Shown here one piece after another: positions 16,649 to 44,734 of a stretch of DNA of 64,000 bases; position 1 is the first letter of the stretch; every line of letters begins with the position of its first letter. Source of the DNA: Escherichia phage ALITA. Where the stretch lies: sequence record PP359570; one strand, written 5' to 3'. Made by a program: the position numbers and the translations under genes. Under the pieces are notes generated by a model. The model was not told the DNA's origin and did no database searches. It saw nothing but the letters and a program-made list of their open reading frames with translations.

Positions 16649-16814
16649 CCTATGCCGGACACATAGGCGGCTAATAATAACGCAACTACACACCCCACAT
16701 AATAACCATCAACGATGGTTATTATTTGTGTTTATGTAGCTTGCAACAATTGCAAGCGCAACAATATACATGGTATATTGTATTCCCTTACATTGTTGCG
16801 GTGCGTTATTATTA
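16649..16814. other. nested inverted-repeat structure (outer 12-bp stem enclosing hairpins); candidate structured ncRNA or origin element
   Basis: gcctatg-ccggaca-cataggc; aataaccatc-aac-gatggttatt; gcttgcaa-caa-ttgcaagc; outer gctaataataac ... gttattattagc; approx. Confidence 0.4.
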
Positions 16815-17117
16815 GCTAATGTTTAGAACATTGGCTATAATATAAGCTGCATATAATAAACTATGCAATAATAAACATGGTGAATAATGACACCGATGAT
16901 CATAATGCGCCACCCTCCAGGGGGCGCTATGTAAACACAAAGAAATCTTTCTTGTCAAGAAAATATTGCCACTATTGCGCAAAATTATTTTTATCTGAAT
17001 AGATGATTTTTCATACTATTGCCCCTATAACATACCTCATTTGTTGAGCCTACTTTCTTAAAAGCGCAATAAATCAGAATTATCTTGATTTTTAGGGCGT
17101 TTTATAGTACAGAAAGT

Positions 17118-17142
17118 ATGCAAATGATAATCATTATCAGCT
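17118..17142. promoter_or_regulatory. Fur-box-like motif (closest to consensus)
   Basis: cAAATGATAATCATTATCag: 16 contiguous bases identical to the Fur consensus core; approx. Confidence 0.45.
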
Positions 17143-17299
17143 ATCTTCCACGGGTAGCACTATTTCACGCCAGATCATTTCATTTGGCAAGGTGTATATA
17201 GATGTTTAGACTTGCCAAGCCATTGATTTACTTAGAATTTATCTGTTTTGTTGTGAGTAATACCTTTCTTACTCAGAAAATAATCAAAAGTCTTATAAG

Positions 17300-17341
17300 T
17301 CATTGAATGATAATACAAATGATAATTATTCTCATTGATAT
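17300..17341. promoter_or_regulatory. Fur-box-like motif pair
   Basis: gAATGATAATacAAATGATAATTATTCTCATTgata; approx. Confidence 0.35.
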
Positions 17342-17695
17342 TTGAGGGGGACGGTCGGCAGAAATCGGGGGGCGCTGAAAATCGCGTTAAGCACCTCTCG
17401 CAAGCGAGCAGTATTTTGCGGCAAGTTATTGATATTATTGACTTTACGCTTATGAAAAGGGGGTGTGTCGAAATAAATCGGGTATACCGGAAAATTTTTG
17501 TGGCATAGATATTTATTTGTCTATATTATGTACAAAGGGGTGTATTAAAAATAATAGGTATATATAGAATAATTGATAGGGAAATCCTATACTAATCCCT
17601 CCATTAATGATGTTTCTATGTTGCTGTTATTGTAATAGATGAAAAGACGCTGTATGATGTGTGGCATGAAACGTAAACTTATAAAGGAGTCTGAT

Positions 17696-18065
17696 ATGTG
17701 TGTCCCTCTTAGCAGTCCACTGCTGTTAGAATTTTACAAAGCATGGATGGAAGATCATTCCTCAATGCATCGTGAGAATGTTGGTTTGTGTATTTGCCTT
17801 ATGGATTATCTGGCAACCACTATGTCAAAGAAAAAAAAAACCTACGCAAGAAGATATAGAACATTTCAAGATGGTTCGTAGTAAAACGCTGGAAGAGATG
17901 AAATTGCAATTCACGTGTGCTGGGCTATCCTCCTTCCTGCCCTTTAATGATGACCTTCTGTGTTATGAAGATGAAGGTAAGAAACATTCTTGCCATACTA
18001 ACCCAGAGAGATTGCAGTGGGTGAAAGATCGTATCGAAGATGCAAATAATGTTTGCATTGGATAG
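17696..18065 (+). pseudogene. paralogous-family gene split by a frameshift at an A10 tract (track ORFs 17639..17881 and 17772..18065)
   Basis: N-part LLEFYKAWMEDH...GLCICLMDYL and C-part EEMKLQF...PFN...ERLQWVKDRIED align with intact paralogs at 19847 and 20839; frames differ by one nt across A10 at 17831-17840. Confidence 0.5.
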
Positions 18066-18135
18066 AAATGCCTGTACACTGTGTTCCATAAGATATGCAA
18101 TATCGCGCATAACAAACTACTAATGAGAGGTGTAA

Positions 18136-18453
18136 ATGAGAACTTTATCTTTGTATATTGATCGTAACTCCATTCGAGAAATGCGAGATGTACAACAGGA
18201 TTATGAATTCTACCCGGAAATTTGTGAACGCTATGAAACTATTCTTAATTCTGTAGAAGACCCAGATACCAGTGAAACAGGTGCTTCCCACTTACTGTGG
18301 ATGTTGAATGAAATTCAGGATGGGTGTAATGATATGTCTGAAACCAAACGCCATCGTTGGCTAGGCTATATTCAGGGTGTTATGGTTATGAAAAACCTTA
18401 TTACAGTTGATGATGAACGTAACGCTACACGCCCCATCTTTAATGGAGCATAA
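18136..18453 (+). CDS. hypothetical protein (105 aa)
   Basis: ORF-track ORF; agaggtgtaa SD. Confidence 0.5.
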   Translation: MRTLSLYIDRNSIREMRDVQQDYEFYPEICERYETILNSVEDPDTSETGASHLLWMLNEIQDGCNDMSETKRHRWLGYIQGVMVMKNLITVDDERNATRPIFNGA

Positions 18454-19846: not shown

Positions 19847-20215
19847 ATGCAAGAGAATAGTAAAGTGTGTAACATGAAAAGCAGCCCCTATTTGCTACAA
19901 TTTTATGAGTGGTGGTTAGAACAAGAAGATACAAACTTTAGCAAAAAGCATTATGGTCTTTGCACGTGTCTTGTAGACTTCTTATACAATATTGCTTTGA
20001 TAAAAGATGTTGAGAATGTAGCAAAGCTCCAATCCTCTGTACGAGAGGAAATGAAGGAACAATTTAAGAAAGCGGGTTTGAACCATTTACATCCGTTTAA
20101 TACGGATTTCTCGCACTACTTTACGGAAACAGAACTAGGCATTGCACACCTTAATAAAGAACGTGTACAATGGGTGATTGATCGTATTCGTGATATGGAG
20201 GAATACAATGGTTAA
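19847..20215 (+). CDS. paralogous-family protein, intact copy (122 aa)
   Basis: LLQFYEWW...GLCTCLVDFL...PFN...ERVQWVIDRIRD; aggagaag SD. Confidence 0.55.
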   Translation: MQENSKVCNMKSSPYLLQFYEWWLEQEDTNFSKKHYGLCTCLVDFLYNIALIKDVENVAKLQSSVREEMKEQFKKAGLNHLHPFNTDFSHYFTETELGIAHLNKERVQWVIDRIRDMEEYNG

Positions 20216-20426
20216 GTTTAAAACTTTCTGTGCAATCACTGTTTGTCTTATTCTTGCATACGTGTTATTCTCTAGTATCATTCGTTTAGGTGAGTATATG
20301 GCAAGAGAAGCTCGTGAAAGTGAAGCTAAAAAAGAACAGTGCATCGTGTTAAAGCACCAAAGGGATGCTGAAAAGTTTCTCGCACTTGATTGCAATCGTT
20401 ATGTATCTTATCAAATGTATGAGTAA
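20208..20426 (+). CDS. small single-TM protein, paralog of 23680..23904 (72 aa)
   Basis: Track ORF trimmed to ATG after ggagga; hydrophobic N-term then KEQCIVLKHQRDAEKFL. Confidence 0.5.
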   Translation: MVKFKTFCAITVCLILAYVLFSSIIRLGEYMAREARESEAKKEQCIVLKHQRDAEKFLALDCNRYVSYQMYE

Positions 20427-20435
20427 GGAGGGTTT

Positions 20436-20660
20436 ATGGTAAAACGTCTGGAATGGGATGCGTGTACTGCTCACGCTTGTCACTGTGATATTGTTGAAGA
20501 TCCTAATGGAGAGATGGTGTATTATGAGGATTACGAAGCATTGCACAATGCTGTGATTGCTTTACTGGATGATATTGGCTCACGCTATCCAGGACAACAA
20601 TTCACGTGTCCACATATCCAACTATTAGCCGAACTTACGGAGTATCCAAGTGTTCCATAA
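20436..20660 (+). CDS. hypothetical protein, paralog of 24565..24828 (74 aa)
   Basis: Shared CDIVEDPNGEMVYYEDYEAL / CDIVPDPEGDYVLLADYNKL block. Confidence 0.5.
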   Translation: MVKRLEWDACTAHACHCDIVEDPNGEMVYYEDYEALHNAVIALLDDIGSRYPGQQFTCPHIQLLAELTEYPSVP

Positions 20661-20661
20661 T

Positions 20662-20829
20662 ATGGGTGTCCCTGAACAACTGCTCTTTATTGTAGGATTA
20701 GTAGGCTTATTGGCGGCTGGCGCTAAAGCCGCTTCTCACACGCATCACATAATGTTAAGATTTCTATTCCTGCTCCCTTCTATCCTCGTACTACTAGTCA
20801 TACTGATCGATAACATTTTTCACAATTAA
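20662..20829 (+). CDS. small hydrophobic membrane protein (55 aa)
   Basis: Below track cutoff; MGVPEQLLFIVGLVGLLAAGAKAA...; codon-counted. Confidence 0.35.
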   Translation: MGVPEQLLFIVGLVGLLAAGAKAASHTHHIMLRFLFLLPSILVLLVILIDNIFHN

Positions 20830-20838
20830 GGAGAGGTC

Positions 20839-21423
20839 ATGAGTAAAATTATACCAAGCAGTTATGAATTATTGCAGTTTTATGTATATTATATAGACTG
20901 GGTTAATAGATCGAATGTTAAAGACAATGCGATGTTTAGTAAAAACATCTGTTTAACAGAAAGTATCTTCCGTTACTGGCACACAGGTAGAAAGTGTACA
21001 CACAGTGAAGCTATGCGCATTGTAGGTGAATACCTGGAGCAATTGCAAAAAGCAGAGCTACCTGTCCTTCACCCATTCAATGAATCTAAAGAAGAATTAG
21101 AACAAGAGTGTAGAGAAGGTAAGTGCCATTTGAATGAAAAACGTATCGAATGGGTGAGGCAACGTTTAGCCGATGCAGGAAAGACTCCTAGTGACTCTGA
21201 CTATACGTGGTATGATGTAGAGGGTTTAGTTCAAGGTTTTGAGGCTTGTGCTATAGATAATACAAACTTTGCCAAAGTTTTATGCGAGGCTTATGACCTG
21301 GCAGATAAAATCCGAAATCACGGATGGAAACAAGAGCATAAAGAATCATATGAACGCCTTGACAAGATTTTCAAACAGATCTATTCTAACCACAAGAAGA
21401 TGTTCCAAATGGAGGATGTGTAA
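20839..21423 (+). CDS. paralogous-family protein with C-terminal extension (194 aa)
   Basis: ELLQFYVYY...PFN...EKRIEWVRQRLAD; ggagaggtc SD. Confidence 0.55.
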   Translation: MSKIIPSSYELLQFYVYYIDWVNRSNVKDNAMFSKNICLTESIFRYWHTGRKCTHSEAMRIVGEYLEQLQKAELPVLHPFNESKEELEQECREGKCHLNEKRIEWVRQRLADAGKTPSDSDYTWYDVEGLVQGFEACAIDNTNFAKVLCEAYDLADKIRNHGWKQEHKESYERLDKIFKQIYSNHKKMFQMEDV

Positions 21424-21495
21424 TGAAAGAGATTATTTTGAAGGGCATCGTTACGAAGTTCCAGAATACTGTCTTTGGATAAAACGGGAGGAATA

Positions 21496-21663
21496 ATGCA
21501 AACATTTTTTATCGACAAGTTCAATAAAAGTATGAACACGTGGATGGCAACATTCACTATGCAATTTGCGTCATTTAAAGAAGCTCAAGAATGGTGCGAT
21601 CAACACAAGGATTTTGATTTTTACTATCAAGTTAATGCAAACCTTTCTCCAGAGGAGAAATAA
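21496..21663 (+). CDS. hypothetical small protein (55 aa)
   Basis: Track ORF 21475..21663 trimmed to ATG after gggaggaataa. Confidence 0.4.
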   Translation: MQTFFIDKFNKSMNTWMATFTMQFASFKEAQEWCDQHKDFDFYYQVNANLSPEEK

Positions 21664-21664
21664 T

Positions 21665-22009
21665 ATGTTGGCTGATATTGAAATCCTTATGTACCGACAA
21701 GGTATGATCAAAATGTGGCTAGATTCTTTTAGCAACATATACTGTACAGTACGATCAGCAGACGAGCGTAAAACGCTTATTTTATCTGCTATTGTTGATA
21801 AACAACGTTTCTTCAAAGAAATTTTGCAAACAGGCTTCTCCGATGCAGGAGTAGAGATTGCAACGCTTAGTCTTGGAGTGCTGTCTTACTTGGAATCCGT
21901 TGTTTTATATGTCTTCTCTTTAGAGGAAGACTTGCAATTTGAAGCATTAAAACTTATCCTAGATGCTGCAATTGACATAGAACAAAATCGAATTGATTCT
22001 TTTGAATAA
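21665..22009 (+). CDS. hypothetical protein (114 aa)
   Basis: Track ORF 21566..22009 trimmed to ATG after ggagaaataat (MLADIEIL...). Confidence 0.45.
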   Translation: MLADIEILMYRQGMIKMWLDSFSNIYCTVRSADERKTLILSAIVDKQRFFKEILQTGFSDAGVEIATLSLGVLSYLESVVLYVFSLEEDLQFEALKLILDAAIDIEQNRIDSFE

Positions 22010-22024
22010 AATAAGGAGAAAACT

Positions 22025-22483
22025 ATGAAAGAGGTTAAACATTATCCACATGGTCGTAGTTTTGTAGCTGTATGGCATGTTCCTGCTCGTAATGAACTAT
22101 TTTGTGCATCTTTTCATTACAAAGATGGACAATATTTCACCTATGACGAAACGATGGATGATTTTATCCCAGAGTGCGATCATGGGTATACACCAATGTT
22201 CTTTAAACGTATGAAAGCTCGTTTCTTCGTTACAGATGTTGATGGTGAACCTACTTGGCACATCGAAGAAGATTGGCAAGATTCTGTGGATATTAAAGAA
22301 GCCCCAGAATGGGCTACACTACTGGTACACGTCAAAACCCCTACTCTTGACGTTATGGCGTGGGTTAATCATGATGATACCCATTACCAATACATAAATG
22401 GTAGCACAGAGATTTCTGGTGAGATTATTGGTCGTTGGAAGCCTACGAATCAGGTTGCTATTGTCGGGTATAAGACAGTATAA
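22025..22483 (+). CDS. hypothetical protein (152 aa)
   Basis: ORF-track ORF; aaggagaaaact SD. Confidence 0.55.
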   Translation: MKEVKHYPHGRSFVAVWHVPARNELFCASFHYKDGQYFTYDETMDDFIPECDHGYTPMFFKRMKARFFVTDVDGEPTWHIEEDWQDSVDIKEAPEWATLLVHVKTPTLDVMAWVNHDDTHYQYINGSTEISGEIIGRWKPTNQVAIVGYKTV

Positions 22484-22484
22484 T

Positions 22485-22679
22485 ATGAAAAATAATGTAG
22501 ATTGGGATGATTTATCCGATTTTGAAAAATGGTTCTTAGGTAGTGGTTGTTATGCAGATGGGGATCTCGAAAGAGATCCTTCTGGAAACTACACTATGCC
22601 ATTAACCCAAGGTTTTTATGAGTGCTGGTGCGCAGCACAAAACAACGTACTGATTAAGGAGACAACACAATGCAATTAA
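22485..22679 (+). CDS. hypothetical protein (64 aa)
   Basis: Track ORF 22398..22679 trimmed to ATG overlapping previous stop. Confidence 0.4.
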   Translation: MKNNVDWDDLSDFEKWFLGSGCYADGDLERDPSGNYTMPLTQGFYECWCAAQNNVLIKETTQCN

Positions 22680-22909
22680 ACATCGGACAACCAATTTTTG
22701 ATGCAGATACTGGTCAATATGCAGTGATTGTTGCTCGTATGAGCGGTGATGACCTTATTGTTTCAGAACTACTCGGATCAGATCCGCAACTGCGCGTAGT
22801 ATGTGACCTATATCTTCGAGACGAAAGTGATCGCATTGCACTGAAAGAAGATGGTATGCTCTACTATACCTGGACTAGAGATCCTGGGGTAACGGAGGTA
22901 GAGGTATAA
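22670..22909 (+). CDS. hypothetical protein (79 aa)
   Basis: ORF-track ORF; aaggagacaaca SD. Confidence 0.45.
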   Translation: MQLNIGQPIFDADTGQYAVIVARMSGDDLIVSELLGSDPQLRVVCDLYLRDESDRIALKEDGMLYYTWTRDPGVTEVEV

Positions 22910-23208
22910 TGGTAAGGAATAGGGGTTTACATAAAAGAAGACACCTTACTTACTGGCATCGTAAAGTACATGAACCTGTATCAAAGAAAGAATGGCAATA
23001 TCTGCCTTATGGGAAGGAGCGAAGAAAGTATCTGTTAGCTCACTTAAGGGTACATGGTTCTCTTCCTGTTAACAGTAAGTGGCAATTGCAAACAGCTTAT
23101 GACGAAGATATGAAATATCTGTTAAAGAGAGGCATTATTTGCCTTGTTAAGATAGGACGATGGAAATCTCGTCAATCTTATATCGTACTTAAACAGGAGA
23201 AACGATGA
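22909..23208 (+). CDS. hypothetical basic protein (99 aa)
   Basis: ORF-track ORF; K/R-rich, possible nucleic-acid binding (inference). Confidence 0.45.
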   Translation: MVRNRGLHKRRHLTYWHRKVHEPVSKKEWQYLPYGKERRKYLLAHLRVHGSLPVNSKWQLQTAYDEDMKYLLKRGIICLVKIGRWKSRQSYIVLKQEKR

Positions 23209-23456
23209 ATATCAAAGATGTTGTAGCATACGTAGAAGATGAAGTTAAAAACCATACAAGTTTACTGAAAGTAATGGTTGTGGTTAAAGATGGTATTGGA
23301 CAAGTAAACGTACAACATGTCTTATCTGACACTGTATATAATGTGTTTGAATGTAAAGAAACACCTCATGGAGTACGTGTGGTTTATATTGATAACAATT
23401 TCAAAGAATGTGTGAGACATACCTTAGAAAATGAACTAAGGATCACAATCTTATGA
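23205..23456 (+). CDS. hypothetical protein (83 aa)
   Basis: ORF-track ORF; acaggagaaacg SD. Confidence 0.5.
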   Translation: MNIKDVVAYVEDEVKNHTSLLKVMVVVKDGIGQVNVQHVLSDTVYNVFECKETPHGVRVVYIDNNFKECVRHTLENELRITIL

Positions 23457-23626
23457 GTTATTATGTTGTACCTTATGCCAATAAGTGGAGAGTAAGAGAA
23501 ACTTGTTTTCTATTCTCCTGGTGGGCTACGTTCGGAGATGGTTGTGGAAATGATACAGGAAAGCCTGTAGAGTACGACACAAAAGAAGAATGTGAACAGT
23601 GGATAAAATTAACACAAAGATGTTGA
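23453..23626 (+). CDS. small Cys-containing protein (57 aa)
   Basis: Below track cutoff; ATGA overlap with previous stop; codon-counted. Confidence 0.35.
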   Translation: MSYYVVPYANKWRVRETCFLFSWWATFGDGCGNDTGKPVEYDTKEECEQWIKLTQRC

Positions 23627-23679
23627 CACGATCTTAACTTCTTGTTAGTATCAATGTGTACTAACGATAAGGAGGGTTT

Positions 23680-23904
23680 ATGAAGTCTGTAAACAAGTTG
23701 CAACAATTTTTGTTATCAACAGCAATCTTTTTGCTTTTGTTAATTGGTATTCTGTATGGTGCATCTAACTTATACAATCTACATAATGATGTAGAACAGA
23801 ATAAAGAGAAGTGCATCATTCTAAAACACAAGAAACAAGCAGAAGATTTCTTAAAGAATAAGTGTTACAACTACATTGATTATGAGGAGACAAACAATGA
23901 TTAA
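23680..23904 (+). CDS. small single-TM protein, paralog of 20208..20426 (74 aa)
   Basis: Hydrophobic N-term then KEKCIILKHKKQAEDFL; aaggaggg SD. Confidence 0.5.
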   Translation: MKSVNKLQQFLLSTAIFLLLLIGILYGASNLYNLHNDVEQNKEKCIILKHKKQAEDFLKNKCYNYIDYEETNND

Positions 23905-24139
23905 AGAATTAGGTATGCGAGTATACAGTGAGTGGACTCCAAGCAATGGCCCAGGAGTTGTTGCAGCTAAATGTATCAATGGTCGTATTGAGTACCTGGA
24001 AGGGTATGAAGATAATGAAGAGTTAGTAGATTATGCTAAATCTTTTATTGAAGATGATACAGACTTTATTGTATTATATGATACAGGAGAGTTAGAGTAT
24101 GGATATGATGGAGATGGGGATATCTTTGAACTTCAATAA
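23897..24139 (+). CDS. hypothetical acidic protein (80 aa)
   Basis: Track ORF 23876..24139 trimmed to ATG after gaggag. Confidence 0.45.
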   Translation: MIKELGMRVYSEWTPSNGPGVVAAKCINGRIEYLEGYEDNEELVDYAKSFIEDDTDFIVLYDTGELEYGYDGDGDIFELQ

Positions 24140-24159
24140 GAGTAGTAAGTAAGGTATAA

Positions 24160-24240
24160 AGAGTATATAGTTAGTTATAGAGTTAGTAACATTACATATA
24201 CTCTTTCCATGTATAACATGGAATATTCTCTACCTCGCTA
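24160..24240. promoter_or_regulatory. intergenic inverted repeats (candidate operator/promoter region)
   Basis: aaagagtatat ... atatactcttt 11-bp inverted repeat and TCCATGT-ata-ACATGGA palindrome; approx. Confidence 0.3.
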
Positions 24241-24346
24241 TCGCTCGGTATATAAGATTAGGGTAGCATGTTTTTTACGAAAAGTAAAACTGTTTATACC
24301 GATTGATAGCAGGTTTTTAATAGATTCTATCTATGAGGAGTAAAAA

Positions 24347-24565
24347 GTGTACAAATTATATAAAGGAAAAGATAAGTTTACGGGTAATACATCTGGTTTC
24401 TATGTAACACCACGTGGCGTTGCCGTATTTGATTGGATTCCTGGTACTCCAGATCGTGAAATGATCTCTCTTGTAAAACTGTCGGAACAAGAGTACACTT
24501 ACGGTGACATTACAACATTCTATTCTCGTGCAGAAAATCCAAAACTGATCGCGGAGTGGGAATAA
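24347..24565 (+). CDS. hypothetical protein (72 aa), GTG start
   Basis: ORF-track ORF; gaggag SD then GTG. Confidence 0.4.
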   Translation: MYKLYKGKDKFTGNTSGFYVTPRGVAVFDWIPGTPDREMISLVKLSEQEYTYGDITTFYSRAENPKLIAEWE

Positions 24566-24828
24566 TGGTTACACGATATGGCTTAGAGGTGTACAGCCAA
24601 GGTGCTGCTGGTCAATGTGATATTGTACCAGATCCAGAAGGAGACTATGTTCTTCTTGCTGATTACAACAAGCTAGAAGAAAGACTTCTGGCTGTGTATG
24701 CTAAAGAGAACAAAACAATCTGTCCTTATTGCAATGGAATGGGTTGGGTGGTTGCAGATGTTGGACAAATGTATGAATGTGTACCTTGTAAAACCACAGG
24801 CTTTATTGAAAAGGATACTGACAAATGA
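24565..24828 (+). CDS. hypothetical protein, paralog of 20436..20660 (87 aa)
   Basis: Track ORF trimmed to ATG; shared CDIV.DP.G block plus CPYCNG...CVPC Cys pairs. Confidence 0.45.
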   Translation: MVTRYGLEVYSQGAAGQCDIVPDPEGDYVLLADYNKLEERLLAVYAKENKTICPYCNGMGWVVADVGQMYECVPCKTTGFIEKDTDK

Positions 24829-25073
24829 CTGTAGCAGATAAAATGAGAGAACTGGCAGAAAACGCAGAACTTAACAAAGCAAAAGAGAGTTTACAAAACG
24901 TCTACGCGTATATTGAAAGAGCAGCTAAAGATGGAGACAGAGAAGCTGCTATATATACGCTTTATCCAACTTTCGTAAAAGTTAGTTTGGATGCTGAAGG
25001 TTTTTCAACTTTTATTGATACAGAAACATCTCATTACGATGAAAACTTTACTCGAATAGTTATTCGATGGTAA
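24825..25073 (+). CDS. hypothetical protein (82 aa)
   Basis: ORF-track ORF; overlapping start. Confidence 0.45.
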   Translation: MTVADKMRELAENAELNKAKESLQNVYAYIERAAKDGDREAAIYTLYPTFVKVSLDAEGFSTFIDTETSHYDENFTRIVIRW

Positions 25074-27501: not shown

Positions 27502-27825
27502 ATGCAAAAAATAAACACTGGTTCTCGTCCTAAACAGAAGCAAACAAAAGCAAGGGTATCTTATGTTGACAACTCTTGTTATAATTTCAAAAATGTTAAA
27601 GAAGTTATCATTGATGAAAAAGAAGGTTTGATTCACATTTCATCTGAACGTTTGAAAGGTAGTGTTACTCTTCGTGAGAATGTATCTATACCTATGAAAG
27701 TTGTGGCTACACTCTGTGTTGATAAACCAGATGTTGTTAACTACTATGTGTTCCGTGATAGTTGTATTTCATTACATAACAAGATTTTTAAATCTTCGCA
27801 CGTTAAAACAAAACACATTGTATAA
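27502..27825 (+). CDS. hypothetical protein (107 aa)
   Basis: ORF-track ORF; followed by UUCG terminator. Confidence 0.5.
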   Translation: MQKINTGSRPKQKQTKARVSYVDNSCYNFKNVKEVIIDEKEGLIHISSERLKGSVTLRENVSIPMKVVATLCVDKPDVVNYYVFRDSCISLHNKIFKSSHVKTKHIV

Positions 27826-27830
27826 CACAT

Positions 27831-27857
27831 AAACCCGCTTCGGCGGGTTTTCTTGTA
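27831..27857 (+). terminator. rho-independent terminator, UUCG-tetraloop family
   Basis: aaacccgcTTCGgcgggttttcttgtat, same element as at 2872; approx. Confidence 0.65.
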
Positions 27858-27899
27858 TGTGTGTTTTTATTTGTCTTAGCATAAACAATAGGAGGTATT

Positions 27900-28121
27900 A
27901 TGTCTGTAGTTGTAGAAGGTAGTATTGGTTTCTTAGTAGATAACCCTCACCCTTTCGTGGTTAAGGTTCATATTCAAGAAAAGGTAAGCAACAATACGTG
28001 GTTGTGCTTGTTAGATAGTAAGATACACTCTTATACAGAGGTTTATCTTCACACTTGGCAAATTGGTACGATAACAGCAGAGGATGAATTGATAATTGAA
28101 CTATATGAACGAGATCTATAG
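27900..28121 (+). CDS. hypothetical protein (73 aa)
   Basis: ORF-track ORF; taggaggtatt SD; last + strand gene before convergence point. Confidence 0.45.
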   Translation: MSVVVEGSIGFLVDNPHPFVVKVHIQEKVSNNTWLCLLDSKIHSYTEVYLHTWQIGTITAEDELIIELYERDL

Positions 28122-28197
28122 ATGACTTTATTAGAGAGTATCGTAGTGTTAATCATCTTTATCATTGTTGTCATAGGATATTTTACAGAAGACTAAA

Positions 28198-28236
28198 ATA
28201 AAGCCCCTAGAATCGCTTCTAGGGGGCTTTTGTTTG
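28198..28236. terminator. bidirectional terminator at convergence of + and - gene blocks
   Basis: aaataaAGCCCCTAGaatcgcttCTAGGGGGCTtttgttt: long palindrome flanked by A-run and T-run; approx. Confidence 0.55.
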
Positions 28237-28297
28237 CATTAGATAGGGAAACGTATTACTAAAATAAAAAGTGCGTTAGAATGCGTTACAGGAGGTT

Positions 28298-28555
28298 TTA
28301 AGAATGCATAAAATCTTCTTCAGGGCAGGTTGAGAGATAAGAGATGCACGTTGGGACAACAACAACATTATCTTTAAGGTTTGCAACCAAGCCTTTTGTA
28401 ATTCCAGCCACTGCCCCGTTAATATCTGCTTGACGGATACCGAAACCTTGTTGTGCGGATAGATAACAAAATCCCTCACCTTTCTGTTGATTATTATTGA
28501 AGTAATAAACGTAGTGCATCATAAAATGGTCTTTAACGATTTGTTCTGTGGTCAT
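28298..28555 (-). CDS. hypothetical protein (85 aa)
   Basis: ORF-track ORF, last gene of - strand block. Confidence 0.45.
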   Translation of the reverse strand: MTTEQIVKDHFMMHYVYYFNNNQQKGEGFCYLSAQQGFGIRQADINGAVAGITKGLVANLKDNVVVVPTCISYLSTCPEEDFMHS

Positions 28556-40539: not shown

Positions 40540-40806
40540 TTACTCCGCAATCTGAGCCATGAATTCACGTAGTTCAGAAAAACCTCCTACGTGGGTTAGC
40601 TGTTCACCATCTTCCACAAAAATCTGAGGAAATGTACGTGGTAGAACACCTGTTTTCTCTAAGACCAGATTCTGAATCTGATCTAAAGAATAGTCTTCAT
40701 CTAAGGTAAGGTATTTAAAATCCTGTTCACGCTGTTCTAGTAGAATCTTAGCGTTAGTGCAGAAAGGACAATTTGGTTTACCGTAGATAATAAAATTCAT
40801 TTTCAC
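40540..40806 (-). CDS. nrdC: glutaredoxin (NrdC-like)
   Basis: IIYGKPNCPFCTNAK (CPFC active site) and C-terminal HVGGFSELREF parallel T4 NrdC. Confidence 0.8.
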   Translation of the reverse strand: MKMNFIIYGKPNCPFCTNAKILLEQREQDFKYLTLDEDYSLDQIQNLVLEKTGVLPRTFPQIFVEDGEQLTHVGGFSELREFMAQIAE

Positions 40807-41633
40807 TCCTTGTTTAAAAGTATAGTTAAAGTTCTTACAATACCGCTATCAACACTTCGCGGATTTAAAGTAGGATCTGTTTTTAAATAAGATGTTGCTG
40901 GTCTGACTGCTTTGGAGTTATAGGTTGAAGCAGACACAGGATTAACTGTAACCGATAAATCTATAACAAGAAATATCTTACGTGCAAAGTCATACCAAGA
41001 AATATAATCTGCACCTGCATAGTGTACAATTTTACTATTTACACCATCTTTTACAAGTTTAAAAATTGTTTCTGCAAGATCAGGTGCATAAGTAGGACAC
41101 GACAAATGATCACATACTACATTAAATTCTTTTTGACCACCGTTGTAGCGTTCCAACATAGTTTTCAAAAAGTTATGTCCAAATTCACTATAAACAGAAG
41201 CTGTTCTGATAATAAGTGCTGTAGGACAAACTGTTTGTACTAAAGTTTCACCTAATTGTTTACTATAACCGTAGGTGTTCAAGGGGTTTGTTTTACTATC
41301 TTCTGTACCAGCAACATGCCCATCAAAAACATAGTCTGTTGAAATATGTACAAACTGTATCAGTAAATCATTACATGCTTTGGCAATGTTTGTTGCACCG
41401 TATGCATTAACATTTATACAGGTGTTAACATCTTCTTCAGCTTTATCTACTGCCGTGTAAGCCGCACAATTCACAACAACATCAGGCACATGCTGTACAA
41501 GATTATTCATAACATCTTTAAAGTTGGTAATGTCTACATCACTTGCTTCAATCAAAATAACATCTTCGGGCGCAACTTTTGCCAAAGACTGTCCTAATTG
41601 ACCTTTTGAACCAAAGATTAAAAATTTTGTCAA
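40803..41633 (-). CDS. rmlD: dTDP-4-dehydrorhamnose reductase
   Basis: MTKFLIFGSKGQLGQSL nucleotide-binding start, SDR-like STDYVFDG; last gene of rml operon. Confidence 0.8.
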   Translation of the reverse strand: MTKFLIFGSKGQLGQSLAKVAPEDVILIEASDVDITNFKDVMNNLVQHVPDVVVNCAAYTAVDKAEEDVNTCINVNAYGATNIAKACNDLLIQFVHISTDYVFDGHVAGTEDSKTNPLNTYGYSKQLGETLVQTVCPTALIIRTASVYSEFGHNFLKTMLERYNGGQKEFNVVCDHLSCPTYAPDLAETIFKLVKDGVNSKIVHYAGADYISWYDFARKIFLVIDLSVTVNPVSASTYNSKAVRPATSYLKTDPTLNPRSVDSGIVRTLTILLNKE

Positions 41634-43074: not shown

Positions 43075-44064
43075 TTAAACTTTATTTTCCCACCACTCTT
43101 TGTTATCTACATACCAATCAATGGTTGAATAAAGTTTTTCTTCAAATGTGCCTTTAGCTTTCCACCCTAATTCCTTTTCAATCTTATAAGGATTCACTTC
43201 ATATCTTAGATCATGTCCAGGTCTATCTGTAACCATCTCAATTAGGCTACAAGCATCTGTTTCAGATGGATACACCGCATCCATATAATCACAAATCATA
43301 TAGATTACATCAATATTAGTTCTAGGGTTTCTGCTCCCAATATTATATGTTTCTCCAGATTTGCCTTTAGTTACTACTAGGTGTAATGCTTCTGCGTGAT
43401 CGTCAACGTATAACCAGTCTCTTACCTGAAGACCATTGCCATAAACAGGGATTGGTTTATTCATCAAGATATTTGTTATCGTTTTAGGTATTAGTTTTTC
43501 TGGATGATGGTATGCTCCAAAATTATTTGAACAATTTGTTATAACTGTCGGAATACCATAAGTACGATGCCACGCTCTTACCAAATGATCGCTTGCTGCC
43601 TTAGATGCAGCATATGGACTACTTGGCTTATAAGGATTCTGTTCTGTAAACGGATAATCCCCTTCTTCCATATCACCATATACTTCATCTGTTGAAATAT
43701 GATGGAACATTTTAAGATTTGATTTATCTCCCATTAAACGAACAGCTTCTAGGAGATTAAATGTCCCAACAATATTTGAATTTATAAAAACACTCGGTGA
43801 TGCTATTGAATTATCTACGTGACTTTCTGCTGCAAGATGCATTATATAATCTGGATTAACATCTGCCACAATCTTAGCAGTTAACTGCGCATTTGTCAAG
43901 TCAACACGACAAAACTTTACATTGGGTGTTTCTGATAAATTTCTAGGGTCTGAAGCGTAACCCCATTTATCTATAACGTAAATATCATTTTTAGTATTTT
44001 TAGCCAGGAAACGAACTACTGCACTTCCAATAAAGCCTAAACCACCTGTTACTAAGTATTTCAT
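43075..44064 (-). CDS. rmlB: dTDP-glucose 4,6-dehydratase
   Basis: [36 protein letters not shown] catalytic YxxxK. Confidence 0.9.
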
Positions 44065-44271: not shown

Positions 44272-44598
44272 TTACCAAACGTGTTGAGAAATAATAGTTT
44301 CCGTTTCAATGTTATATTTTTCAAGAAGTTGTGCGTAGGCTTCTTTTGCATTCTTATTTAGTTGCTCAAGATCTACAGCTATACTTCCTTCGCCACCTTC
44401 TAAATAAATGCCATATATGCAATAAGATTCATCAGCATCATAGAAAGGAGAGATACGGCTTAAATCAAGACCTTCTTGTAAGAACCAATTAAAATCTCCA
44501 TCAAATTCTTCTTCAATTCTAGGATCTTCTCCTACAGCCCCTTCCCATTTATTAAAAGGTGCACCCTGTAACATACGCCATGCAATATCAACCCCCAC
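44272..44598 (-). CDS. hypothetical acidic protein (108 aa), GTG start
   Basis: ORF-track ORF; GAGGAGG SD then GTG. Confidence 0.45.
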   Translation of the reverse strand: MGVDIAWRMLQGAPFNKWEGAVGEDPRIEEEFDGDFNWFLQEGLDLSRISPFYDADESYCIYGIYLEGGEGSIAVDLEQLNKNAKEAYAQLLEKYNIETETIISQHVW

Positions 44599-44734
44599 TA
44601 TCTTCCTCCTCTTCTTTTTCTTCTGTATGAACGAAACCTAAGCCGTTACAATTCCAACAAGGAATAAATTGTTCCATACTAACAATAAAATTCCCAGTGC
44701 CGCCGCAGATAGGACAAATACTTACATCGTCCAT
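44588..44734 (-). CDS. small zinc-ribbon protein (48 aa)
   Basis: Below track cutoff; MDDVSICPICGGTGNF...PCWNCNGLGF... (two CxxC pairs); codon-counted. Confidence 0.4.
   Translation of the reverse strand: MDDVSICPICGGTGNFIVSMEQFIPCWNCNGLGFVHTEEKEEEEDSGG

What the first reader, a model, noticed from the sequence alone, without database searches (positions are those of the whole stretch)
19847..24828. Local paralogous families indicate repeated gene duplication in the early region
(i) 17696, 19847 and 20839 share LL.FY..W…GLC.CL.D…PFN…ER..WV..RI. (ii) 20208..20426 and 23680..23904 are single-TM proteins sharing KE(Q/K)CI(V/I)LKH. (iii) 20436..20660 and 24565..24828 share CDIV.DP.G…Y. Members of (ii) and (iii) are adjacent in one copy and ~0.7 kb apart in the other, pointing to segmental duplication followed by divergence, as under an arms race.
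Basis: seen in the sequence. Interest (0 to 1): 0.45.

Follow-up and report, generated by a model that had tools for sequence, protein, structure and literature searches.

The report
Old small-gene families in phage early array
Three sets of related small genes really do sit beside the genome end of this phi92-like E. coli phage. They are old, conserved members of uncharacterised phage gene families that are now reshuffled by recombination, deletion and fusion, which is ordinary for a large phage and does not show a fresh arms-race duplication.

Summary
All three similarity groups are statistically real by BLASTP within the window, shuffle tests, PHROG cross-hits and hhalign.

The window is a Justusliebigvirus (phi92-like). 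The genes are phi92 gp006/007/008/010/022/025, just inside the left terminal repeat.

- **Family (i):** a ~110-residue all-helical, phage-only domain. It has at least 1,750 clusters in public data, no Pfam model, no PDB relative and no known function. It is multi-copy in many phages.
- **Family (ii):** small signal-anchored proteins with a conserved C-x16-C tail.
- **Family (iii):** a shared N-terminal half fused to different C-termini, not whole-gene paralogy.

- The copies are 27–49% identical and their DNA similarity is essentially gone.
- Most have counterparts in the sister genus Phapecoctavirus.
- Families (i) and (iii) are under purifying selection (dN/dS 0.06–0.12).
- Only the A1/A1b tandem pair is demonstrably a local duplication.
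- In this window that pair has collapsed into one hybrid gene by recombination in the shared QWVKDRI-coding stretch. The hybrid also carries a private A10 frameshift.
- A block duplication of (ii)+(iii) is possible but unproven.

Function is unknown; an early host-takeover or counter-defence role is inferred from position only.

The parts
17047..17389 (.). Equivalent of the phi92 left direct terminal repeat. It marks the physical genome end, so the gene families lie in the first ~8 kb inside it.
   Evidence: phi92 positions 1-565 (the DTR is annotated as 1-343) match window 17047-17609 at 97%.
17696..18065 (+). Family (i) copy 1. It is a hybrid of the tandem paralogs A1 (5' ~345 nt) and A1b (3' end plus downstream DNA), and it is frameshifted in this genome.
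   Evidence: Alignment to outra A1 and A1b. The same hybrid is intact with an A6 run in KKE7M. The family HMM hits both half-ORFs.
17831..17840 (+). A10 homopolymer that breaks the reading frame of copy 1. The four relatives checked (EmilieFrey, Eryne, outra, KKE7M) have A6.
   Evidence: No phage record gave a full 321-nt collinear match; the single-piece matches are 317 nt.
18015..18034 (+). Crossover stretch CAGTGGGTGAAAGATCGTAT (encodes QWVKDRI), shared by A1 and A1b, where one gene unit was deleted.
   Evidence: The BLASTN segments to the A1 and A1b regions of outra and EmilieFrey overlap here. The column-wise identity switch is seen.
19847..20215 (+). Family (i) copy 2 (A2; phi92 gp006), 122 aa, six predicted helices. 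Its stop overlaps the start of B1 by 8 nt.
   Evidence: phrog_2510 at 1e-25. AF2 pLDDT 85, pTM 0.80. dN/dS 0.12.
20208..20426 (+). Family (ii) copy 1 (B1; phi92 gp007). It has an N-terminal hydrophobic anchor and a charged tail with Cys45 and Cys62.
   Evidence: phrog_15662 at 9e-38, cross-hit to phrog_23204 at 2e-6. Hydropathy and Cys spacing. Orthologue directly after a family (i) gene in ESCO25.
20436..20660 (+). Family (iii) member 1 (C1; phi92 gp008), 74 aa. It has an N-terminal MV.R(L/Y)…G..V.YEDY..L module followed by an RYPG..F.CP helix pair.
   Evidence: phrog_23083. 216 homologues found. AF2 pLDDT 76. dN/dS 0.06.
20839..21423 (+). Family (i) copy 3 (A3; phi92 gp010), 194 aa. The family domain covers residues 1-118 (20839-21192). 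The extension at residues 120-193 is a separate gene in Phapecoctavirus.
   Evidence: phrog_27059 at 6e-140 and phrog_2510 at 2e-17. The extension matches L003 21885-22112 at E = 6e-5. dN/dS 0.12.
23680..23904 (+). Family (ii) copy 2 (B2; phi92 gp022). It has a predicted signal peptide or anchor and a C-x16-C tail. Found in Justusliebigvirus only.
   Evidence: phrog_23204 at 1e-49, cross-hit to phrog_15662 at 1.5e-8. SignalP note in the phi92 record. tblastn hits in 55 records, all in this genus.
24565..24828 (+). Family (iii) member 2 (C2; phi92 gp025), 87 aa. The shared N-terminal module covers about residues 1-50 (24565-24714). A DnaJ-like double CxxC zinc ribbon covers residues 49-81.
   Evidence: phrog_22955, cross-hit to phrog_23083 at 4.6e-4. 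hhalign E = 1.8e-8. Only the ribbon half is found in Phapecoctavirus. dN/dS 0.09.

Best explanation
**What it is (shown).** The region is the accessory gene array just inside the left terminal repeat of a phi92-like (Justusliebigvirus) coliphage. All genes are small, on one strand, and often overlap stop to start. The array contains three groups of homologous genes.

- **Family (i):** three copies of a ~110-residue all-helical, phage-specific domain of unknown function. The family is very large and is typically multi-copy within a genome.
- **Family (ii):** two small proteins with an N-terminal membrane anchor or signal and a conserved two-cysteine tail.
- **Family (iii):** two small proteins that share an N-terminal half but carry different C-terminal halves.

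**How it arose (shown in part).**
- The copies are ancient. Most were already present before Justusliebigvirus and Phapecoctavirus split, or were exchanged with other phages.
- Only A1/A1b is demonstrably a local tandem duplicate.
- Present-day change is turnover, not amplification. It includes homologous recombination between tandem paralogs (here two genes collapsed into one hybrid), deletions, homopolymer frameshifts, and gene fusion or fission (A3).
- The A and C genes are kept by purifying selection.

**What it does (inferred, not shown).** From their position these are probably early-expressed host-takeover or counter-defence accessory proteins.
- Family (i) would be a cytoplasmic protein with a conserved polar site (invariant Cys39, Asn103 and Arg106, plus His101). 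Diverged copies would act on different host targets.
- Family (ii) would be an exported or periplasm-facing disulfide mini-protein acting at the envelope. The A2-B1 pair would be co-translated.
- Family (iii) would use its common N-terminal module as an adaptor for different C-terminal effector parts.
For: **Identity and position**
- 98% DNA identity to Justusliebigvirus genomes.
- The phi92 gene names and the DTR map immediately upstream.

**Homology**
-.

**Family (i) size and nature**
- 1,750 representative clusters at E<=1e-3 and 841 at E<=1e-10. Most are 95-125 aa; some proteins carry 2-3 tandem domains.
- No Pfam or NCBIfam model.
- Six-helix AF2 model, pLDDT 85.
- BFVD hits are all uncharacterised phage proteins from many host genera.
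- Near-invariant residues are Y20, C39, P83, F84, N103, R106 and W109.

**Copy number of family (i)**

| Genome or contig | Copies |
|---|---|
| phi92 | 2 |
| this window, KKE7M | 3 |
| EmilieFrey, Eryne, outra | 4 |
| ESCO25 | 5 |
| unrelated contigs | 2-3 |

**Age of the copies**
- Identity matrix and tree.
- ESCO25 synteny.
- Nearest relatives lie outside the genome.
- DNA similarity is gone.

**Turnover**
- Hybrid A1/A1b gene.
- Locus states of 317, 491, 687 and 826 bp across the genus.
- phi92 keeps only an 80-bp remnant.
- A3 extension is a separate gene in ESCO25.
- Deletion-fusion variant P0002.
- A 1.23-kb deletion and a 141-bp deletion in this window.

**Selection**
- dN/dS is 0.06-0.12 for A and C genes, and 0.30 and 0.71 for B genes.

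**Family (ii) topology**
- Kyte-Doolittle hydropathy 2.3-2.8 and C-x16-C in all four homologues.
- SignalP note in the phi92 record.

**A-then-B overlap in both genera**
-.
Against: - No experiment, expression data or characterised homologue supports any function. 'Early' is inferred from position next to the DTR, gene size and strand only. The sigma-70 scan was no better than chance (50 sites against 51.5 expected).
- The A-B coupling is not universal. Klebsiella phage FKP3 has a B gene but no family (i) gene within 10 kb. In Akira and Arno18 the gene after the family (i) member is not a membrane protein.
- With ~110-residue sequences at 30-45% identity, the deep tree is weak. Ancient duplication and horizontal acquisition cannot be cleanly separated.
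- The A10 frameshift could be a sequencing error.
Confidence: 0.7

Rival explanations
1. A B-C two-gene block was duplicated as a segment within the Justusliebigvirus lineage (B1-C1 giving B2-C2). The new copies then diverged fast under an arms race, with insertions separating B2 from C2 and a zinc ribbon replacing the C2 tail.
For: - Same order and strand. B1-C1 are adjacent and B2-C2 are 660 nt apart.
- Similar residual similarity: 44% over 34 aa for B and 41% over 32 aa for C.
- B2 and full-length C2 are found only in Justusliebigvirus, whereas B1 and C1 have Phapecoctavirus orthologues.
- B genes show raised dN/dS (0.30, 0.71), with changes in the exported tail.
Against: - No homology between the genes lying between B and C in EmilieFrey or ESCO25 and those between B2 and C2 (gp023, gp024), nor between the flanks.
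- There is no hidden family (i) copy upstream of B2.
- B1 and C1 are separated by one gene in EmilieFrey and four in ESCO25, so adjacency here may be secondary.
- B2 and C2 are outgroups to (B1, Phapecoctavirus B) and (C1, Phapecoctavirus C). The Klebsiella FKP3 B protein is as close to B2 as to B1.
- C1 and C2 share only the N-terminal half.
- All genes are on one strand, so order agrees by chance half the time, and proximity within three genes has odds of about 0.1.
- dN/dS of C1 and C2 is 0.06-0.09.
Confidence: 0.25
2. Most co-resident 'paralogs' are xenologs. Members of widely circulating phage gene families were acquired separately by recombination with other phages and landed in the same permissive accessory array. 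They did not arise by duplication in this lineage.
For: - Family (i) and the C1 family occur in unrelated phage groups, including Ounavirinae, Akiravirus, Drexlerviridae, Kagunavirus, N4-like, T7-like and jumbo phages.
- A2, A3, ESCO25 18339 and ESCO25 21559 each have closer relatives outside their own genome than inside. ESCO25 18339 is closest to a Drexlerviridae protein at 47%.
- C1 is about as similar to Kagunavirus-like proteins (46-59%) as to the Phapecoctavirus orthologue (57%).
- A1b is 89% identical between genera while neighbouring genes are 30-57% identical.
- The array is indel-rich.
Against: - A1, A1b and the two tandem ESCO25 copies are each other's nearest relatives, and they are adjacent. 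This is the signature of local tandem duplication.
- Gene order A, B, C, A is conserved between the two genera.
- Many best outside hits come from ~150-kb contigs that may themselves be Stephanstirmvirinae relatives.
- Short, divergent sequences give weak trees.
Confidence: 0.35
3. The A10 run in the first family (i) gene is a programmed slippage site, transcriptional or translational, that regulates how much full-length protein is made. It would not be a defect.
For: - Runs of 9 or more A are known, from my own knowledge of the literature, to cause RNA polymerase slippage in bacteria that can restore frame.
- Removing one A gives a full 122-aa family member with all conserved residues.
Against: - The four relatives whose run was read (EmilieFrey, Eryne, outra, KKE7M) have A6 and an uninterrupted ORF, including KKE7M with the same hybrid gene.
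- No record in the phage collection matched the A10 form.
- A feature private to one genome is more simply a mutation or a homopolymer sequencing error.
Confidence: 0.05
4. The similarities are chance matches between short, compositionally similar ORFs.
For: C1-C2 alone is modest in a simple pairwise search (E = 4e-4 over 32 aa).
Against: - Shuffle tests give P values from 5e-6 to below 1e-9.
- Independent PHROG cross-hits.
- hhalign E = 1.8e-8.
- The motifs are conserved in orthologues of other genera.
Confidence: 0.01

Closest known systems
PHROG families 2510 / 27059 / 6418 (pVOG VOG7392), uncharacterised phage proteins
   Same: All three family (i) genes match these profiles. The outra record already tags its three annotated copies with VOG7392. 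They share size, helical content and the conserved L..FY..W / GLC / PFN / N..R..WV motifs.
   Different: Nothing is known about these families, so filing the genes there gives a name but no function. A3 carries an extra fused domain. The first copy here is a recombinant hybrid with a frameshift.
Multigene accessory families and 'gene accordions' in large DNA viruses, such as poxvirus K3L amplification (from my own knowledge)
   Same: Copy number of a tandem family changes by homologous recombination between copies. The collapse of two genes to one is seen directly at A1/A1b.
   Different: There are no near-identical copies and no sign of recent expansion. Copies are 27-49% identical and under purifying selection. 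Only contraction is seen, not amplification.
T4 Sp and Imm type small early membrane or periplasmic proteins, which act in superinfection exclusion (from my own knowledge)
   Same: Family (ii) proteins are about 70 aa. They have one N-terminal hydrophobic segment and a short exported tail, and they are encoded among putative early genes.
   Different: No sequence similarity to any Pfam, NCBIfam or PADLOC-independent family was found. The conserved C-x16-C motif is specific to this family. Function is untested.
DnaJ central CxxCxGxG zinc-finger / anti-TRAP-like zinc ribbons (PF00684, PF15777)
   Same: C2 residues 49-81 contain CPYCNGMG … CVPCKTTG. The phi92 record calls gp025 'DnaJ-like zinc finger'.
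   Different: HMM scores are far below the curated cut-offs (16 bits against 32.7; 15 against 32). The ribbon is absent from C1 and is not part of what C1 and C2 share.
Lar-like restriction alleviation proteins (phrog_3592; Pfam PF14354)
   Same: C1 residues 2-47 give a weak hit to phrog_3592 (E = 1.1e-3). Both are small proteins in early or accessory regions.
   Different: No Pfam Lar hit even at E<=1, and C2 does not hit it. This is too weak to claim membership.

Membership tests
PHROG 2510-type phage domain (family i) | Significant full-length match to the family profile | tested here: met
   E-values for the three copies are 1e-22 (A1, frame-corrected), 1e-25 (A2) and 2e-17 (A3). An HMM built from 128 representatives finds exactly these three in the window.
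PHROG 2510-type phage domain (family i) | Conserved core residues: F19, Y20, G37-L38-C39, P83-F84-N85, N103, R106, W109-V110 | tested here: met
   Conservation table. A1 and A2 keep all of them. A3 keeps FY, PFN, CH.N, R and WV, but its GLC motif is degenerate (NIC).
Local tandem duplication (A1/A1b) | Adjacent copies that are each other's nearest relatives, with recombination between them | tested here: met
   The copies are adjacent in EmilieFrey, outra and ESCO25. Their nearest relatives are each other. The hybrid gene has its crossover at 18015-18034.
Recent lineage-specific gene amplification (arms-race expansion) | High identity between copies, detectable DNA similarity, copies absent from sister taxa | tested here: not met
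   Protein identity is 27-49%. Only 30-38-nt motif remnants remain at DNA level. A1b, the A-B pair and C1 have counterparts in Phapecoctavirus.
Recent lineage-specific gene amplification (arms-race expansion) | Elevated dN/dS | tested here: not met
   A2 0.12, A3 0.12, C1 0.06, C2 0.09. Only B1 (0.30) and B2 (0.71) are raised, and B2 rests on 15 synonymous differences against 47 nonsynonymous summed over pairs.
Segmental (block) duplication of B-C | Collinear homologous genes in both blocks | tested here: met
   B comes before C on the + strand in both places.
Segmental (block) duplication of B-C | Additional homologous genes or non-coding DNA within or flanking the blocks | tested here: not met
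   No hits among intervening or flanking genes. No family (i) remnant upstream of B2. No DNA similarity beyond the motifs.
Segmental (block) duplication of B-C | Congruent phylogenies of the two gene pairs | tested here: inconclusive
   B2 and C2 both look like outgroups to B1 and C1 plus their Phapecoctavirus orthologues. The sequences are too short and the taxa too few for a real test.
Whole-gene paralogy of C1 and C2 | Homology over the full length | tested here: not met
   The alignment covers C2 residues 1 to about 62 only. The C1 tail (RYPG..F.CP helix pair) is replaced in C2 by a zinc ribbon. The ribbon occurs alone in Phapecoctavirus.
Bitopic or secreted small membrane protein (family ii) | One N-terminal hydrophobic segment of about 19 residues and a conserved exported-domain cysteine pair | tested here: met
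   Kyte-Doolittle(19) is 2.3-2.8 and C-x16-C is present in B1, B2, ESCO25 B and FKP3 B. SignalP note for phi92 gp022. Actual topology is not testable here.
DnaJ CxxCxGxG zinc finger (PF00684) | Score above the Pfam gathering threshold | tested here: not met
   16.0 bits against a cut-off of 32.7. The motif is present by eye: CPYCNGMG and CVPCKTTG.
Lar restriction-alleviation family | Match to Pfam PF14354 or a strong PHROG 3592 match | tested here: not met
   No Pfam hit at E<=1. phrog_3592 gives E = 1.1e-3 for C1 only.
Programmed slippage site | Conservation of the slippery run and of the two-frame arrangement in relatives | tested here: not met
   Relatives have A6 and a single ORF.
Early (pre-replicative) phage genes | Expression early in infection | not testable with these tools
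   Only position next to the DTR, one-strand arrangement and small gene size are available. The promoter scan was uninformative.

The most novel reading that the evidence does not exclude
Family (i) could be a large, unrecognised phage effector superfamily: an enzyme or tight binder built on a six-helix fold with no solved relative, using an invariant Cys/Asn/Arg (plus His) site. Multi-copy arrays whose copy number changes through recombination would then be a set of specificities against different host defence or housekeeping targets. The translationally coupled B protein would be an envelope-located partner.
Probability: 0.15. Interest if true: 0.6.

Novelty: new member of a known kind. Interest (0 to 1): 0.3.

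Why it matters
The practical value is modest.

- **Remote links.** The analysis connects PHROG pairs that are currently kept apart (15662 with 23204, and 23083 with 22955).
- **A candidate Pfam family.** Family (i) is very large and phage-only, has conserved polar residues and no solved structural relative. It is a reasonable target for a structure or function study.
- **A clean natural example.** The A1/A1b locus shows two diverged tandem paralogs collapsing into a functional hybrid gene by recombination within a 20-nt conserved stretch. Several locus states coexist across one genus.
- **Annotation.** For genome annotation, the first gene should be flagged as frameshifted.

None of this changes current views of phage genome evolution.

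Tried and rejected
- **Word-indexed homologue search.** With A2 alone it returned only its own orthologue. With a 9-sequence alignment it returned 13 proteins. The full HMMER search was needed to see the family.
- **AFDB50 fold search.** Not available.
- **Curated families.** Pfam and NCBIfam gave only sub-threshold noise. Cluster names were all 'hypothetical'.
- **Promoter scan.** No better than shuffled sequence.
- **dN/dS between paralogs.** Abandoned because synonymous sites are saturated and DNA similarity is gone. I used orthologue comparisons instead.
- **Degenerate family (i) copy upstream of B2.** The weak hit of 23453-23626 to A1 (E = 0.13) was not confirmed by the HMM.
- **Conserved partner genes in distant phages.** Neighbours in Akira, Arno18 and three metagenomic contigs are just other small unknown genes.
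- **Literature.** Searches for the phage group and for family identifiers found nothing on these genes.

Full report
**Context**

The 7.5 kb around the finding is 96-98% identical to many Justusliebigvirus (phi92-like, Stephanstirmvirinae) coliphage genomes.

In phi92 nomenclature the genes map as follows:

| Label here | phi92 gene |
|---|---|
| A2 | gp006 |
| B1 | gp007 |
| C1 | gp008 |
| A3 | gp010 |
| B2 | gp022 |
| C2 | gp025 |

- The phi92 left terminal repeat maps to window 17047-17389.
- The families therefore lie in the first ~8 kb inside the physical genome end.
- This is a one-strand array of small, often overlapping genes, bounded by terminator-like hairpins at 15958 and at 27831/28204.
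- 'Early region' is a reasonable inference from this layout, but it is not shown. The sigma-70 scan found no more sites than shuffled sequence.

**Observation check**

In an all-vs-all BLASTP of 376 window ORFs, the three groups stand out:
- A2 vs the two halves of the 17696 gene: 6e-14 and 1e-8.
- A3 vs A2: 1e-7.
- B1 vs B2: 8e-8.
- C1 vs C2: 4e-4.

Further support:
- Shuffle tests give P values from 5e-6 (C1-C2) to far below 1e-9.
- PHROG profiles give independent cross-hits for every group.
- A C1-family profile built without any C2-like sequence finds C2 with 95% probability, E = 1.8e-8.

Chance is excluded. Two corrections are needed.
- The 17696 gene is split over two frames by an A10 run at 17831-17840.
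- C1 and C2 share only their N-terminal halves.

**Family (i): what it is**

- A full HMMER search of 1.84 billion representative proteins finds 1,750 clusters at E<=1e-3 and 841 at E<=1e-10.
- Most are stand-alone proteins of 95-125 aa. Roughly twenty of the top 150 have two or three copies of the domain in one chain.
- No Pfam or NCBIfam model matches.
- No PDB sequence relative was found.
- No source gives any name other than 'hypothetical'.
- AlphaFold2 gives a confident six-helix model (pLDDT 85, pTM 0.80).
- Foldseek against viral models finds only uncharacterised proteins. They come from phages of Rhizobium, Pectobacterium, Burkholderia, Delftia, Klebsiella, Achromobacter and Pseudomonas, and several of those phages have more than one copy.
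- Across 128 diverse members the residues Y20, C39, P83, F84, N103, R106 and W109 (A2 numbering) are 99-100% conserved. H101 is 82% conserved.
- All three window copies keep this core, although A3 has a degenerate GLC motif.

**Family (i): history**

An HMM scan gives these copy numbers:

| Genome or contig | Copies |
|---|---|
| phi92 | 2 |
| this window, KKE7M | 3 |
| EmilieFrey, Eryne, outra | 4 |
| Phapecoctavirus ESCO25 | 5 |
| short stretches of unrelated metagenomic phage contigs | 2-3 |

*The copies are old.*
- They are 27-49% identical to each other.
- The tandem A1/A1b pair is already present in ESCO25, where A1b is 89% identical to its counterpart.
- A1, A1b and the two ESCO25 tandem copies are each other's nearest relatives. 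This is the one clear local duplication.
- A2, A3 and the other ESCO25 copies each have closer relatives outside their own genome. A2 is 47% identical to P0031 but 41% to A1. ESCO25 18339 is 47% identical to a Drexlerviridae protein.
- These copies are therefore either very ancient paralogs or separately acquired.

*What happens today is turnover.*
- The first gene in this window matches A1 for its 5' ~345 nt. From the QWVKDRI-coding stretch (18015-18034) onward it matches A1b and the DNA downstream of A1b.
- Exactly one gene unit has been lost by recombination between the two paralogs.
- The same hybrid is intact in KKE7M. At least eight records show the single-copy state.
- Other genomes show the two-copy state (687 bp), two copies plus an insert (826 bp), or partial states.
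- phi92 keeps only an 80-bp remnant.
- The A10 run is private to this window; relatives have A6.
- A3 is a fusion. Its last 74 residues are a separate gene that follows the family (i) gene in ESCO25.
- A metagenomic variant (P0002) fuses A3 to a downstream gene by deletion.
- Compared with all relatives, the window also lacks 1.23 kb (phi92 gp011-013) and 141 bp inside the gp001 homologue.

**Family (ii)**

- B1, B2, the ESCO25 homologue and the Klebsiella FKP3 homologue all have one N-terminal hydrophobic stretch (Kyte-Doolittle 2.3-2.8).
- All have a charged tail carrying two cysteines exactly 16 residues apart, within a conserved (K/E)(E)(Q/K/E)CI.LK(H/Y)…AE.FL…C..Y core.
- phi92 gp022 (B2) is annotated with a SignalP signal peptide.
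- B1 overlaps the stop of A2 by 8 nt. In ESCO25 the B gene overlaps the preceding family (i) gene by 10 nt.
- FKP3 has a B gene without a nearby family (i) gene.
- B2 is found only in Justusliebigvirus.

**Family (iii)**

- C1 belongs to a family of at least 216 proteins. Members are 67-76 aa in ~44-kb Kagunavirus-like contigs and 148-152 aa in Phapecoctavirus.
- The same N-terminal module heads a 198-aa Wifcevirus protein with unrelated repeats.
- C2 has this module followed by a double CxxC zinc ribbon. The ribbon occurs alone as a small ORF in Phapecoctavirus, where it is often mislabelled 'DNA ligase'.
- The relationship is therefore module sharing, not whole-gene paralogy.
- A weak hit of C1 to the 'Lar-like' PHROG (1e-3) is not backed by Pfam.

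**Was B-C duplicated as a block?**

For:
- Same order and similar divergence.
- Both B2 and full-length C2 are restricted to this genus.

Against:
- No homology among intervening or flanking genes.
- No hidden family (i) copy before B2.
- B1 and C1 are not adjacent in EmilieFrey (one gene between) or ESCO25 (four genes between).
- B2 and C2 behave as outgroups to B1 and C1 plus their Phapecoctavirus orthologues.
- DNA similarity is limited to a 38-nt and a 30-nt motif remnant.

I rate this possible, at about 0.25, but unproven.

**Selection**

Nei-Gojobori estimates over six genomes:

| Gene | dN/dS |
|---|---|
| A2 | 0.12 |
| A3 | 0.12 |
| C1 | 0.06 |
| C2 | 0.09 |
| B1 | 0.30 |
| B2 | 0.71 (few changes) |

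Neighbouring genes give 0.03-0.18. The B substitutions fall mainly in the exported tail. The A and C genes are therefore conserved, functional genes. Only family (ii) gives a hint of relaxed or diversifying selection.

**Mechanism**

Shown:
- Homology within each group.
- The age of the copies.
- Recombination-driven contraction.
- Gene fusion.
- Purifying selection.

Inferred:
- Early expression.
- A host-takeover or counter-defence role.
- A functional site in family (i) formed by the invariant Cys, Asn and Arg.
- A periplasmic disulfide domain in family (ii), possibly working with A2.
- An adaptor role for the family (iii) module.

No tool result bears directly on function.

**Novelty**

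- Paralogous small-gene families in phage accessory arrays are a known kind of thing.
- Family (i) is already catalogued. The outra record tags three of its copies with VOG7392.
- New here are the remote links within (ii) and (iii), the hybrid-gene evidence for paralog recombination, the fusion origin of A3, and the size and conservation pattern of family (i).
- I found no paper on any of these genes.
- Interest is modest.

Noticed in passing
window 17831-17840: An A10 homopolymer frameshifts the first family (i) gene. The four relatives checked (EmilieFrey, Eryne, outra, KKE7M) have A6 and an intact ORF. It is either a real private mutation or a homopolymer sequencing error.
   Followed up: yes
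window 17696-18140 (crossover at 18015-18034): The first family (i) gene is a recombinant of two tandem paralogs (A1 5' part, A1b 3' end), with one gene unit deleted. Across the genus the locus exists in single-copy, two-copy, two-copy-plus-insert and remnant-only states.
   Followed up: yes
window 21458-21465 (junction): About 1.23 kb present in the five aligned relatives (phi92, EmilieFrey, Eryne, outra, KKE7M) is missing here. It covers phi92 gp011, gp012 and most of gp013, annotated 'Eaa-like' and 'Tk.3-like'. This genome has the most reduced version of the array among the records seen.
   Followed up: partly
window 18136-18453: The homologue of the outra/EmilieFrey gene that follows the A1/A1b pair (152 aa there) carries an in-frame 141-bp deletion and is 105 aa here. 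phi92 itself has unrelated sequence at this position.
   Followed up: partly
window 17047-17389, and the AT-rich stretch about 16000-17600 (GC 0.33): The phi92 left direct terminal repeat maps here, so the window runs across the physical genome end. The record is therefore permuted relative to phi92.
   Followed up: partly
window 21196-21417 (A3 residues 120-193); L003 21885-22112: The C-terminal 74 residues of A3 are a separate gene in Phapecoctavirus ESCO25, which indicates gene fusion or fission. A metagenomic variant (P0002) instead fuses A3 to the C-terminal part of the product of window 21665-22009.
   Followed up: partly
window 40803-41633 (-) and 43075-44064 (-): Another paralogous pair outside the finding (BLASTP E = 5e-7, 28% over 162 aa). 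Both match phrog_540, which is labelled 'nucleotide-sugar epimerase'.
   Followed up: partly
window 44588-44734 (-): A 48-aa ORF resembles the zinc-ribbon half of C2 (E = 7e-4). The ribbon is therefore a second, independently recurring small module in this genome.
   Followed up: no
window 24698-24841 (+1 frame inside C2); protein P0215: A metagenomic C2 variant is frameshifted inside the zinc ribbon and continues in the frame of this overlapping window ORF. This is another example of indel damage in the array.
   Followed up: no
window about 27800-28300: GC skew changes sign and gene orientation flips here, with two bidirectional terminator-like hairpins at 27831-27850 and 28204-28225. This marks the end of the plus-strand accessory array.
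   Followed up: no
L003 13335-13703 vs L001 2065-2433: The A1b paralog is 89% identical between Justusliebigvirus and Phapecoctavirus, while neighbouring genes are 30-57% identical. This means either unusually strong constraint or recent exchange between genera. It is also the copy that this window has partly lost.
   Followed up: no
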